Positions 34,283 to 36,083 of a DNA stretch of 64,000 bases are shown here, in pieces. The stretch is from Escherichia phage 235Ecol030PP, in sequence record PP355091.1; one strand, 5' to 3'. Each line of letters begins with the position of its first letter. Within the stretch, counting starts at the first letter, position 1. The position numbers and the translations under genes are program-made. The notes under the pieces were generated by a model. The model was not told the origin of the DNA. It was given only the letters and a program-made list of their open reading frames with translations, and searched no databases.

Positions 34283-34301
<19 letters not shown>

Positions 34302-34786
34302 TCAGTGATAAAGTTATTTAAATTTTGAGTATATTTCTTTTCATCAAAAATCTTTTGTTGTCTGCGTAAACGCCATGGCATTTCAATGAACACACACCAT
34401 ATTCCTGATAATATTGCTGTTGTCAAAATATTAACAAGTATGATTAAAAGAATCCAATCTCCCGTTCTGCCTACTGGACTTTCTCCAAAGAAGCAAAATA
34501 CAAATGATGTCACAGGAAGACTAATAATATACCACAGAATCATAATCTTATCTGTGAACCAATCAGCGTTCGTTAACTTAGCACGACCGTTTTGAATACA
34601 TACGAACTTATCATCTGTTATAATAGATGGCTTAGCTGCTTGATATCCCATTCTAAACTCCCTAATCAACAAATTTTTCATATCTTCGGAACAACCATTC
34701 CAGTCAACTCTATCAACTGGAATGCCATCATCCCCATCATCTAAATCATACCAGCGAGTTTTTAAAATCATCTGATTTTCCTGCAA
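34283..34786 (-). CDS. Membrane protein, member of a tandem paralog family
   Basis: 167 aa; TM segments; C-terminus [10 protein letters not shown]. Confidence 0.5.
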
Positions 34787-35130
34787 TCACTCACAAACTC
34801 TTTCATTGCTTCATTTTCAATATAAGAAATGTAGCTATTATATTCCTTTAATTGTATTTTGTAATCTTTTTTTCTTTGCCAATTTATTTTAAAATTATCA
34901 TAATGAAAATATAACATGGTACCAAAGAATGAAAATAATGAAATAATTTTAGTATAGTGAAGTTCACTCCAAACTTCTATTATATTTACTGTGCCGTCAA
35001 TGTTTAAAATAAGACAGTCAATTAACAATCCAAAAAGACTACCCGCAAGAGCTGCAGCCAACGCCACAGCAAAAATTAAAAATGACTCAGGAAGCGAATA
35101 TTTGGCTTTATTTAGTTTTGGCTTTTGCAT
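34768..35130 (-). CDS. Membrane protein, member of a tandem paralog family
   Basis: 120 aa; C-terminus KEFVSDCRKIR. Confidence 0.5.
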   Translation of the reverse strand: MQKPKLNKAKYSLPESFLIFAVALAAALAGSLFGLLIDCLILNIDGTVNIIEVWSELHYTKIISLFSFFGTMLYFHYDNFKINWQRKKDYKIQLKEYNSYISYIENEAMKEFVSDCRKIR

Positions 35131-35525
35131 CGTGATTCCTTAACAAATTTCATAATTTCATTAAATTCATACTCAGCAAGTTTAAGCTGGTGTTCCTTTT
35201 TAATCTTTTTACACTGAGCTTTCCAATCGTGTACACGTTTACGATAATGTCTTCCTTGATACCAGTATCCTACCCAATTTACGGGTACTAATAAAAGTGG
35301 AACTACCAATGGAAGAATTAGCATTAACACAAGTATTTCGCCAGAATCAATATCAGTCATAACATCTAAAACACCTCCAATAATCAATAGAATTACAAAT
35401 GATATAAGTATAACAGGACCTATTAATACATCAGTAGAAATTATCTGGTGCTTTGATTCATACTTCAAAGGTTTACTTGGAAGGTATAGTGATGGTTTTG
35501 ACATATTCTCTACATTCCTTAACAA
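35112..35525 (-). CDS. Membrane protein, member of a tandem paralog family (TTG start in track; ATG at codon 8 more likely)
   Basis: 137 aa; C-terminus IMKFVKESRCKSQN. Confidence 0.5.
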   Translation of the reverse strand: MLRNVENMSKPSLYLPSKPLKYESKHQIISTDVLIGPVILISFVILLIIGGVLDVMTDIDSGEILVLMLILPLVVPLLLVPVNWVGYWYQGRHYRKRVHDWKAQCKKIKKEHQLKLAEYEFNEIMKFVKESRCKSQN

Positions 35526-36083
35526 ATTTTTCTAATAATAAATCGCTTTCAAAATTGGGATTTTCCACGAATTTATCAAAAAGATCATCAACAATAGTTA
35601 AGATATTCTTTTTACTAAGAATACGCTTATTTTCATGCTTCGTTTCAGAATCAACTATAAGAGTAAAGAAATATTTCTTGCCCTGAAATTTTACAGTAGT
35701 ATCAATATAGAATAAATTTGACTTTTGTAAATTACGTTTAAACCATGCGTCGCTTAAACTATAAACGCCAAGATAATCATAATCGTCGTTTAAATAACAG
35801 ACCGTCCATTCAGGAGAAACAAAATCAGTAAATTCAACGTCAAAATCGCATATGTTAATAAATGAATTGATTCAATACTGTTAATAAGTATTCCAGGACG
35901 TATTAAAGACTTTTTACCTCTAGAAAATCTTCCAGAAAGACTTTCATCAGTTTCATATGAAGAACCCCAATAATAATTACGTCCTTCTGCCATACGTTTA
36001 AGAGCATTTAATAATTGGTCTGGAACATCAACCTGTCTTTGAAACTCTTCAAACATTGAATTGAAATCACTTTGCATTTTCAT
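35473..36083 (-). pseudogene. Frameshifted gene: 5' ORF (35790-36083) continues in the +1 frame to 35473; C-terminus KFVKECREYVK resembles the downstream paralog family
   Basis: 97-aa track ORF ends in implausible tail; adjacent frame open for about 118 codons without any ATG/GTG/TTG start; frame change lies between 35790 and 35878. Confidence 0.45.

What the first reader, a model, noticed from the sequence alone, without database searches (positions are those of the whole stretch)
34283..36083. Tandem array of paralogous membrane proteins ending in F(V/I)xxCR, with the first copy frameshifted
Three consecutive ORFs (34283-34786, 34768-35130, 35112-35525) end with [21 protein letters not shown] and KFVKESRCKSQN. 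Upstream, ORF 35790-36083 ends in an implausible tail while the +1 frame is open for about 118 codons without a start and ends KFVKECREYVKTITIPSK, so this looks like a fourth paralog disrupted by a frameshift between 35790 and 35878. Paralog arrays of small membrane proteins in phages are often superinfection-exclusion or host-interaction factors.
Basis: seen in the sequence. Interest (0 to 1): 0.45.

Follow-up and report, generated by a model that had tools for sequence, protein, structure and literature searches.

The report
T4 e.2–e.5 genes, e.5 frameshifted
This is the known but uncharacterised early gene block e.5-e.4-e.3-e.2 of a T4-like coliphage; here e.5 is broken by a two-base insertion found in no other genome searched, and all four products end in the same short tail motif, so the finding is real but largely ordinary.

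Summary
The window comes from a T4-like phage (Tequatrovirus; its proteins match Escherichia phage 235Ecol030PP). The four ORFs are T4 genes e.2, e.3, e.4 and e.5, lying between e.6 and nudE/lysozyme e.

The frameshift is real in this sequence. In T4, PP01 and L14, e.5 is one 609-nt, 202-aa gene, and 640 of 643 phage records match it over at least 80% of its length. The window carries an extra AT (CATG to CATATG, 35849-35854). That allele was not found elsewhere. The repaired protein is 100% identical to L14 e.5, with only synonymous differences downstream. The lesion is therefore very recent or a sequencing error.

The C-terminal motif is also real. F[VIL]x[ED][CS]R occurs four times in the six-frame translation of all 64 kb, each time 3-11 residues before the stop of one of these genes.

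Whole-gene paralogy is not shown. Profile comparisons align only the tails (P 3.5e-4 to 0.07). e.2, e.3 and e.4 share a design of a two-helix membrane hairpin plus a basic tail. e.5 has no membrane segment; its hydrophobic end is the out-of-frame read-through.

The motif DNA also carries the next gene's ribosome-binding site and is a joint where cassettes are lost in relatives. Function remains unknown.

The parts
35853..36083 (-). e.5, codons 1-77 in the original frame (the annotated 97-aa ORF 35790-36083 continues out of frame after codon 76)
   Evidence: Alignment to PP01 and L14 e.5; tblastn of the phage G8 e.5 splits at 35853/35850; the 97-aa product is WZX06382.1 of phage 235Ecol030PP, a singleton cluster
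35849..35854 (-). CATATG: site of the private 2-bp (AT) insertion that frameshifts e.5; relatives have CATG
   Evidence: The listed best matches among 239 phage records span 74 nt for the 76-nt probe, i.e. lack the two bases. Exact scans of viral, metagenome and genome contigs found 0 copies of the insertion allele
35790..35792 (-). premature TAA reached after 21 out-of-frame codons (YAILTLNLLILFLLNGRSVI)
35473..35850 (-). e.5, codons 77-202 plus stop, in the other frame; open, no start codon until a GTG at 35568
   Evidence: Against L14: 9 synonymous and 0 non-synonymous codon differences in this part
35112..35504 (-). e.4, 130 aa, two hydrophobic helices plus a basic C-terminal tail; its start overlaps the end of e.5 by 32 nt
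   Evidence: phrog_2604 E 3.6e-69; precomputed Pfam PF26873 on homologs; hydropathy; T4 annotation
34768..35130 (-). e.3, 120 aa, membrane hairpin (second helix weaker) plus a basic tail; its ATG lies inside the e.4 tail codons
   Evidence: phrog_2330 E 4.2e-59
34283..34771 (-). e.2, 162 aa, N-terminal soluble part plus two hydrophobic helices plus a tail; ATGA stop/start overlaps with e.3 and with nudE
   Evidence: phrog_2203 E 1.5e-77; precomputed Pfam PF26896 on homologs
33846..34286 (-). nudE (e.1) Nudix hydrolase, last gene of the overlapping run; lysozyme e follows at 33320-33808
35509..35526 (-). tail motif FVKECR of e.5 (contains AAGGAA upstream of the e.4 ATG)
35130..35147 (-). tail motif FVKESR(C) of e.4 (AAGGAA 7 nt before the e.3 ATG); 16/16 nt identical to the e.5 copy (35135-35150 = 35514-35529)
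   Evidence: (D12)
34780..34797 (-). tail motif FVSDCR of e.3 (AGGAAA before the e.2 ATG); part of the imperfect direct repeat 34737-34797
   Evidence: (D2, D11)
34295..34312 (-). tail motif FITECR of e.2 (AGGAAA before the nudE ATG); part of the imperfect direct repeat 34253-34312
   Evidence: (D2, D11)
36102..36122 (-). GGGGCTTCGGCCCC hairpin between e.6 and e.5 (annotated as a terminator in relatives)
36125..36718 (-). e.6, upstream neighbour, preceded by a sigma-70/T4-early-like promoter match at 36746-36773

Best explanation
The region is the early gene block e.5-e.4-e.3-e.2-nudE of a T4-like (Tequatrovirus) phage. The five cistrons are packed with overlapping stops and starts, so they are probably translated as a coupled run from early transcripts.

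e.2, e.3 and e.4 are small inner-membrane proteins. Each has a hairpin of two hydrophobic helices followed by a basic, helical tail that is predicted to be cytoplasmic. e.5 is a soluble 202-aa protein.

All four products, and further small hairpin proteins in Mosigvirus, end in the same short motif, F-[V/I]-x-[E/D]-C-R. I read this as a protein-level module, most likely a common cytoplasmic interaction helix. Its purine-rich codons also supply the Shine-Dalgarno sequence of the next cistron, and the repeated DNA acts as a micro-homology joint at which cassettes are lost or fused.

In this genome e.5 carries a private AT insertion. It truncates the product to 76 native residues plus 21 nonsense residues. 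The lesion is either a very recent loss-of-function mutation in a dispensable accessory gene or a sequencing or assembly error.

Shown: gene identity, the frameshift, the motif, the repeats and the cassette losses. Inferred: membrane topology, translational coupling, an interaction role for the motif and any biological function.
For: Identity and synteny:
- The region is 97.7% identical in DNA to Tequatroviruses, and the gene order matches T4, PP01 and L14.
- Each gene hits its own PHROG at E 1e-59 to 1e-109.
- The window's e.3 and its 97-aa e.5 fragment are exact proteins of phage 235Ecol030PP.

Frameshift:
- It is a 2-bp insertion relative to relatives.
- The allele is absent from the other collections searched.
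- e.5 matches over at least 80% of its length in 640 of 643 phage records.
- The repaired protein is 100% identical to L14 e.5.
- Downstream of the lesion there are 9 synonymous and 0 non-synonymous differences versus L14.

Motif:
- There are 4 of 4 occurrences in 64 kb, all at C-termini.
- It is conserved in Mosigvirus e.5 and e.4 at about 46-52% overall identity.
- It is also present in Mosigvirus moha_53 and in an e.3-like protein that have the same hairpin-plus-tail design.
- The same residues are encoded by different codons: Arg by AGG, AGA or CGA; Cys by TGC or TGT; Phe by TTT or TTC.
- The Shine-Dalgarno sequence sits in different motif codons in different genes, which points to selection on the peptide.

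Architecture: hydropathy and charge distribution fit an N-in, C-in hairpin.

Recombination joint:
- PP01 and L007 lack e.2 exactly, and their e.3 has a hybrid tail ...DCRKLK.
- The e.2 cassette is flanked by a roughly 60-nt imperfect direct repeat (p about 5e-4).
- The e.4 and e.5 tails share 16 of 16 nt.
- P0143 is a natural e.4::e.2 fusion.
- Phage moha has an internally deleted e.3.

Expression in T4: all four have early RNA and a detected protein (PMC9697503 supplementary files 4 and 6).
Against: No experiment or homology gives a function. Pfam, NCBIfam and PADLOC are empty. The AlphaFold models are too poor to use, with pLDDT about 50.

The peptide-level reading of the motif cannot be separated fully from constraint by the overlapping start region of the next gene. 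In e.4 the tail is dual-coding with the e.3 start.

Real mutation and sequencing error cannot be told apart from the sequence alone. A second frameshift, a 1-nt loss in an A-run at about 37862-37867, lies 2 kb away. That fits either explanation.

Coupled translation is inferred from the overlaps only. The RNA fold around the e.4 start is no more stable than shuffled sequence (z 0.09).
Confidence: 0.85

Rival explanations
1. The e.5 frameshift is not biological. It is a sequencing or assembly error in the deposited genome, and the phage makes normal 202-aa e.5.
For: - The allele is unique: no copy was found in the other phage records, in three contig collections, or among 15 billion proteins.
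- The restored frame is perfectly preserved, 100% identical to L14 e.5 with only synonymous differences.
- A second frameshift 2 kb away is a one-base loss in a homopolymer A-run, a classic error type.
- T-even DNA is heavily modified, which degrades some base-callers. This point is from general knowledge and was not tested.
Against: - 89 of 93 matched ORFs across the AT-rich 64 kb are full length in one frame, so the assembly is generally clean.
- A dinucleotide duplication outside a homopolymer is not a typical platform error and is a typical replication slip.
- Both lesions fall in accessory genes, where real knock-outs are tolerated.
- An independent e.5 frameshift exists in another genome, L007.
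Confidence: 0.45
2. The four genes are true whole-gene paralogs from tandem duplication of one ancestral small membrane-protein gene. e.5 would have diverged beyond recognition or lost its membrane segment.
For: - The genes are adjacent and co-oriented, and the tail motif always sits at the same place.
- e.2, e.3, e.4 and Mosigvirus moha_53 share the hairpin-plus-basic-tail design.
- e.3 weakly hits the e.4 PHROG over nearly its full length (E 0.05).
- hhalign gives e.3/e.4 P 3.5e-4 and e.3/e.2 P 4.7e-4.
- The natural e.4::e.2 fusion joins the two proteins at equivalent points, the start of the first helix.
Against: - hhalign probabilities are only 33-37% and cover the tails alone. e.4 against e.2 gives nothing.
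- e.5 aligns only over 7-13 residues, is 202 aa long and has no hydrophobic segment.
- The profiles are shallow (Neff about 1.4-1.7), so the test has little power in either direction.
Confidence: 0.3
3. The repeated tail is only a by-product of nucleotide-level constraint. It is the ribosome-binding and coupling region of the next cistron, copied along with each cassette, and the encoded peptide has no role of its own.
For: - Every motif lies within about 30 nt upstream of the next ATG and contains AAGGAA or AGGAAA.
- There is DNA-level repetition: 16 of 16 nt between the e.4 and e.5 tails, and a roughly 60-nt repeat that runs on into the downstream genes in different reading frames.
- Cassette loss occurs exactly at the repeat.
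Against: - Phe, Val/Ile and Cys are not needed for a Shine-Dalgarno sequence, yet they are conserved.
- The same residues are kept with different codons, and the Shine-Dalgarno sequence sits in different motif codons.
- The motif is kept in Mosigvirus e.5 although the DNA differs.
- In moha_53 the stop precedes the next ATG without any overlap.
Confidence: 0.2
4. The two-base offset is decoded by programmed ribosomal frameshifting, so full-length e.5 is still made.
For: The downstream frame is fully open and intact.
Against: - The offset is private to this genome. All relatives examined encode e.5 in one frame.
- No slippery heptamer or stimulatory structure is evident between 35790 and 35860 by inspection.
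- A +2 insertion would need a +1 or -2 shift.
Confidence: 0.02

Closest known systems
Bacteriophage T4 gene e.5 (NP_049741, UniProt P39223; PHROG 2607), 'conserved hypothetical protein'
   Same: Same position between e.6 and e.4 and the same 32-nt overlap with e.4. The repaired product is 94.6% identical to T4 e.5 and 100% identical to phage L14 e.5. Full-length PHROG match at E 1.4e-109.
   Different: The window copy has a 2-bp insertion after codon 76 and encodes only a 97-aa product.
Bacteriophage T4 genes e.2, e.3, e.4 ('conserved hypothetical, predicted membrane proteins'; PHROGs 2203, 2330, 2604; Pfam PF26896 for e.2 and PF26873 for e.4 as precomputed in the protein database)
   Same: Orthologous by sequence, length, order and overlaps.
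   Different: The window's e.2 is the full 162-aa form, whereas the T4 reference annotates a 102-aa truncated e.2. Some relatives lack e.2 or e.3.
Modular cassette shuffling in the hyperplastic regions of T4-type genomes (promoter-early stem-loop 'PeSL' cassettes; recalled from the literature, not read here)
   Same: Small accessory early genes are gained and lost as units at short repeated junction sequences.
   Different: Here the repeated junction lies inside coding sequence (C-terminal codons plus the next ribosome-binding site), not in an intergenic promoter/stem-loop. No PeSL was tested for.
T4 small membrane proteins of superinfection exclusion and lysis control (Imm, Sp, RI)
   Same: Small, made early, and predicted to sit in the inner membrane.
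   Different: No sequence similarity was found with any library. No phenotype is known. The resemblance is only one of size and class.

Membership tests
T4 e.5 family (PHROG 2607) | Full-length sequence match to the family profile or to orthologs | tested here: met
   After removing the 2 inserted bases: phrog_2607 E 1.4e-109 over residues 1-202; 100% identical to L14 e.5
T4 e.5 family (PHROG 2607) | Position between e.6 and e.4 with overlap into e.4 | tested here: met
   the same 32-nt overlap occurs in Mosigvirus
T4 e.5 family (PHROG 2607) | Single uninterrupted reading frame of about 200-204 codons | tested here: not met
   A 2-bp insertion at 35849-35854 splits it into 97-aa and 125-codon pieces
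T4 e.4 / e.3 / e.2 families (PHROGs 2604, 2330, 2203) | Full-length profile match and T4-like order e.4-e.3-e.2-nudE | tested here: met
   E 3.6e-69, 4.2e-59 and 1.5e-77; order as in T4
T4 e.4 / e.3 / e.2 families (PHROGs 2604, 2330, 2203) | Predicted membrane-spanning segments | tested here: met
   Kyte-Doolittle scans give two segments in e.2 and e.4, and one strong plus one weak segment in e.3. No dedicated TM predictor was available
One paralogous family comprising e.2, e.3, e.4 and e.5 | Significant similarity over most of the length between the families' profiles | tested here: not met
   hhalign aligns tails only: e.3/e.4 33 columns P 3.5e-4; e.3/e.2 13 columns P 4.7e-4; e.4/e.2 none; e.5 against the others 7-13 columns P 0.0056-0.068
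One paralogous family comprising e.2, e.3, e.4 and e.5 | Shared domain architecture (membrane hairpin plus basic tail) | tested here: inconclusive
   Met for e.2, e.3, e.4 and Mosigvirus moha_53; not met for e.5, which has no hydrophobic segment
One paralogous family comprising e.2, e.3, e.4 and e.5 | Shared C-terminal motif F[VI]x[ED]CR | tested here: met
   4 of 4 occurrences in the window's six-frame translation; conserved in Mosigvirus orthologs
Superinfection-exclusion or anti-defence membrane proteins | Sequence relationship to a characterised member, or an exclusion or anti-defence phenotype | tested here: not met
   No hit in PHROGs functional families, Pfam, NCBIfam or PADLOC. The phenotype is not testable here
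Programmed ribosomal frameshift site | Frame offset conserved among relatives | tested here: not met
   All relatives examined have e.5 in one frame, and the offset allele was not found elsewhere
Programmed ribosomal frameshift site | Trans-frame protein product | not testable with these tools
   Needs proteomics of cells infected with this phage

The most novel reading that the evidence does not exclude
The F-[V/I]-x-E-C-R tail is a portable short linear motif. It would tie an otherwise unrelated set of T-even early proteins (at least three or four membrane hairpins and the soluble e.5) to one cytoplasmic partner, or to each other. Its coding DNA, which also holds the next gene's ribosome-binding site, would be the joint through which such cassettes are swapped, deleted and fused. 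Together these would make a coding-sequence counterpart of the intergenic shuffling cassettes known in T4-type genomes.
Probability: 0.2. Interest if true: 0.5.

Novelty: already known. Interest (0 to 1): 0.2.

Why it matters
The practical value is in annotation. The deposited 97-aa 'hypothetical protein' is the N-terminal fragment of e.5 with a nonsense tail, and the gene should be flagged as disrupted or re-checked against reads. If the lesion is real, this phage is a natural e.5 knock-out in a gene that is complete in about 99.5% of related genomes. It would be a convenient starting point for asking what e.5, and its invariable neighbour e.4, do. The shared tail motif and the cassette losses at its coding repeats are a small, testable lead on how T-even accessory gene blocks are organised. 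Nothing here changes current understanding.

Tried and rejected
- **RegA operator idea.** The e.4 and e.5 tails (AAATTTGTTAAGGAA) match the recalled RegA SELEX consensus at 12 of 15 positions. Matches of that quality are at chance level in the window (11 found, 13.6 expected), so I dropped it.
- **RNA structure hiding the e.4 start.** The fold is no better than shuffled sequence (z 0.09).
- **Structure route to function.** AlphaFold2 gave pLDDT 49.5 for the e.5 C-terminal part (single sequence) and 50.8 for e.2 (29-sequence alignment). Both are too poor, so no fold search was run.
- **Family libraries.** Pfam, NCBIfam and PADLOC gave nothing above noise. The 'sulfurtransferase' and 'host specificity protein' names seen in some records have no support from these scans.
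- **Literature.** Four full-text searches and one look-up found no functional study of e.2-e.5. Only expression classes from T4 omics supplements were recovered.
- **IMG/VR search with e.3.** It gave only 4 loci, so the profiles stayed shallow.
- **Programmed frameshifting.** Considered and rejected, because the offset is private to this genome.
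Full report
**What the region is**

The window is about 33-38% G+C. It carries T4 lysozyme e at 33320-33808, a Nudix hydrolase, and a cluster of eight tRNAs. The flagged stretch is 97.7% identical to Tequatrovirus genomes, and 502 phage records match it. A 16-kb stretch around it is about 95% identical to phage vB_EcoM_G8 and others.

Against the annotation of T4, PP01 and L14, the four ORFs are:
- e.2 at 34283-34771
- e.3 at 34768-35130
- e.4 at 35112-35504
- e.5 at 35473-36083

All are on the minus strand. 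They lie between e.6 (36125-36718) and nudE (33846-34286). Exact protein look-up identifies the source as Escherichia phage 235Ecol030PP. Its record annotates the 97-aa ORF as a hypothetical protein, WZX06382.1.

**Check of the observation**

The pattern F[VIL]x[ED][CS]R occurs exactly four times in the six-frame translation of the entire window. All four occurrences lie 3-11 residues before the stop of these four adjacent genes. A DNA form of the pattern gives 4 matches against 0.26 expected. The pattern was defined after seeing the data, but chance is not a credible explanation.

The likely starts are the ATGs used in T4, PP01 and L14, at 34771 for e.2 and 35504 for e.4, not the longer TTG-initiated ORFs. 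With those starts, e.3/e.2 and e.2/nudE overlap as ATGA. The e.3 ATG lies inside the e.4 tail codons, and e.4 starts 32 nt before the e.5 stop.

**The frameshift**

In T4, PP01 and L14, e.5 is a single 609-nt, 202-aa gene. A three-way alignment shows that the window has two extra bases. Relatives read AACATGCG and the window reads AACATATGCG, so CATATG lies at 35849-35854. After codon 76 the ribosome reads 21 nonsense codons (YAILTLNLLILFLLNGRSVI) and stops at 35790-35792. That hydrophobic nonsense tail is what made the ORF look like a membrane protein.

The allele is private to this genome:
- In 239 phage records hit by a 76-nt probe, the best matches are 74 of 76 and span 74 nt.
- Exact scans for the insertion allele found nothing in IMG/VR, metagenome contigs or GTDB genome contigs.
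- The 97-aa product is a singleton among about 15 billion proteins.

By tblastn, e.5 is present in 643 phage records, and 640 of them match at least 80% of its length. Among 60 rows sampled across the ranking, 58 were full-length single pieces.

Removing the two bases gives a protein 100% identical to L14 e.5. Against L14 there are 5 synonymous and 0 non-synonymous codon differences upstream of the lesion, and 9 synonymous and 0 non-synonymous downstream. The downstream part has therefore been under purifying selection essentially up to the present. The lesion is either very recent or not real.

To judge assembly quality, I translated all ORFs of at least 70 aa from the collinear 66 kb of phage G8 and matched them to the window. 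Of 93 matched ORFs, 89 are full length in one frame and two are partial. Only two are split between frames. One is e.5. The other is a gene of about 158 aa at 37675-38144, broken by loss of one A in an A-run (A6 against A7) at about 37862-37867.

Two lesions, both in accessory genes 2 kb apart, in an otherwise clean assembly, fit either real knock-outs or residual errors. I put the odds near even. Programmed frameshifting is very unlikely, because the offset is not conserved. An independent e.5 frameshift at a different site, near residue 130, exists in an IMG/VR genome, L007.

**Are the four genes paralogs?**

PHROGs assigns each gene to a different family: 2203, 2330, 2604 and 2607. The only cross-hit is e.3 against the e.4 family at E 0.05.

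I built ortholog alignments of e.3, e.4 and e.2 from the large protein database and of e.5 from cluster members, adding orthologs translated from the fetched phage loci where available. Comparing the profiles gave:

| Pair | Aligned columns | P | Probability |
|---|---|---|---|
| e.3 vs e.4 | 33 (cytoplasmic tail) | 3.5e-4 | 37% |
| e.3 vs e.2 | 13 (C-terminal) | 4.7e-4 | 33% |
| e.4 vs e.2 | nothing meaningful | - | - |
| e.5 vs each of the others | 7-13 (motif only) | 0.0056-0.068 | - |

The families are narrow: Tequatrovirus plus Mosigvirus, and for e.2 some more distant T4-like phages. Neff is only about 1.4-1.7, so these tests have little power.

Hydropathy shows two hydrophobic helices in e.2 (about 76-132) and in e.4 (about 20-80). 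e.3 has one strong and one weaker helix. e.5 has none. In e.2, e.3 and e.4 the loop between the helices is acidic or neutral and the C-tail is strongly basic. By the positive-inside rule this suggests an N-in, C-in hairpin with a cytoplasmic tail (inference).

So e.2, e.3 and e.4 share an architecture and a tail and may be old paralogs. e.5 shares only the tail motif and is not a membrane protein.

**What the motif is**

Every motif lies just upstream of the next cistron's ATG and contains a Shine-Dalgarno-like AAGGAA (e.5, e.4) or AGGAAA (e.3, e.2). It therefore doubles as the translation-initiation region of the next gene.

Several observations argue that the peptide itself is also selected:
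- The same residues are encoded by different codons. Arg is AGG, AGA or CGA; Cys is TGC or TGT; Phe is TTT or TTC; Val/Ile is GTG, GTT, ATC or ATT.
- The Shine-Dalgarno sequence sits in the K-E codons in some genes and in the R-K codons in others.
- Mosigvirus e.5, only 46% identical overall, keeps QFIMECREYVK with different DNA.
- Mosigvirus has further small hairpin proteins ending in NFIKECRGK or NFIKECRK. One of them, moha_53, has its stop before the next ATG rather than overlapping it.

The low-confidence models place the motif at the end of a long C-terminal helix.

**The motif DNA as a recombination joint**

The e.4 and e.5 tails share 16 of 16 nt (35135-35150 and 35514-35529). The e.3-tail/e.2-start junction and the e.2-tail/nudE-start junction form a roughly 60-nt imperfect direct repeat (34737-34797 and 34253-34312). 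That repeat continues about 35 nt into the downstream genes, in different reading frames (p about 5e-4 each by shuffling).

Several relatives show gene loss or fusion at or near these joints:
- PP01 and L007 lack e.2 exactly. Their e.3 ends in a hybrid tail (...DCR from e.3, KLK-stop from e.2) and abuts nudE, as expected from recombination within the shared TGCAGGAAA.
- Phage moha keeps only the start and the tail of e.3.
- Phage UFV05 has an in-frame fusion of e.4 residues 1-31 to the e.2 hairpin and tail.
- The T4 reference annotates a truncated 102-aa e.2.

Record counts among 50,697 phage genomes are 643 for e.5, 643 for e.4, 605 for e.3 and 533 for e.2. The e.5/e.4 pair is thus the constant core, and e.3 and e.2 are optional.

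**Expression and function**

A sigma-70-like match resembling a T4 early promoter precedes e.6. A GGGGCTTCGGCCCC hairpin separates e.6 from e.5. Published T4 transcriptome and proteome tables classify e.4 and e.5 as early RNA with early protein, e.2 as early RNA with middle protein, and e.3 as early RNA with late protein. All four are therefore expressed proteins in T4 (PMC9697503 supplementary files 4 and 6).

No functional information was found in Pfam, NCBIfam, PADLOC or the searchable literature.

My working model is inference only. These are dispensable early accessory proteins acting at the cytoplasmic face of the inner membrane, and their common C-terminal helix contacts a shared partner. 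Soluble e.5 would use the same contact. Premature termination of e.5 in this phage could also lower e.4 translation if the overlap mediates coupling. The fold around the e.4 start gives no support for a structural requirement.

**Verdict**

The frameshift interpretation is right. The reading of e.5 as a fourth membrane paralog is not supported, and the functional guess remains untested.

These are known, uncharacterised T4 genes. What is particular to this window is a private, recent or artefactual 2-bp insertion in e.5. The shared tail motif and its use as a cassette joint are a modest curiosity worth a sentence in an annotation note. Interest is low.

Noticed in passing
window 37675-38144 (minus strand), lesion at about 37862-37867: There is a second frameshifted gene. 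A roughly 158-aa conserved hypothetical gene (ortholog of PP01_137 / G8_00134) is split by loss of one A in an A-run (A6 here, A7 in PP01 and G8). This leaves a 111-aa ORF at 37809-38144 plus an open remainder. It is the only other split gene among 93 ORFs compared across the window.
   Followed up: partly
L003 (T4 NC_000866 67475-67960): The T4 reference annotates e.2 as only 102 aa, while most relatives and this window encode 162 aa. Truncated forms end ...FFIKIQWTE, consistent with a one-base change in an A-run. tblastn still aligns the whole 162 aa at 75% identity.
   Followed up: partly
P0143 (Escherichia phage vB_EcoM-UFV05, 106 aa): This is a natural in-frame chimera: e.4 residues 1-31 are joined at the start of the first membrane helix to the e.2 hairpin and tail. 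The rest of e.4, all of e.3 and the e.2 N-terminal part are deleted.
   Followed up: partly
L008 3340-3500 (Mosigvirus moha): e.3 is internally deleted. Only its start (MQKPEL-stop) and its last 30 or so codons, ending NFIKECRK, remain between e.4 and the next gene.
   Followed up: no
L008 3492-4286 (Mosigvirus moha_48, _49, _50): Three consecutive small soluble proteins all end in W-[V/I]-[S/A]-S-S-x-x-C-stop. This is a second set of neighbouring genes with a shared C-terminal motif.
   Followed up: no
L007 2549-3155 (IMGVR_UViG_2974787500_000001): There is an independent e.5 frameshift near residue 130, at a different site from the window's. The same genome also lacks e.2.
   Followed up: no
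protein cluster of repaired e.5: The 90%-identity cluster that holds e.5 (202 aa) also lists 130-aa e.4 proteins as members, although the two are unrelated apart from the tail and the 32-nt gene overlap. This is probably a clustering artefact or is caused by a fused gene call somewhere.
   Followed up: no
names: Some records call e.3, e.4 or e.5 'sulfurtransferase' and e.6 'host specificity protein'. Scans of e.2-e.5 against Pfam and NCBIfam, and of e.6 against Pfam, gave no support for these names.
   Followed up: partly
window 36102-36122 (minus strand): A perfect GGGGC-UUCG-GCCCC tetraloop hairpin lies between e.6 and e.5. It is annotated as a terminator in relatives but lacks a T-run on the coding strand, so it may act as an RNA-stability or processing element.
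   Followed up: no
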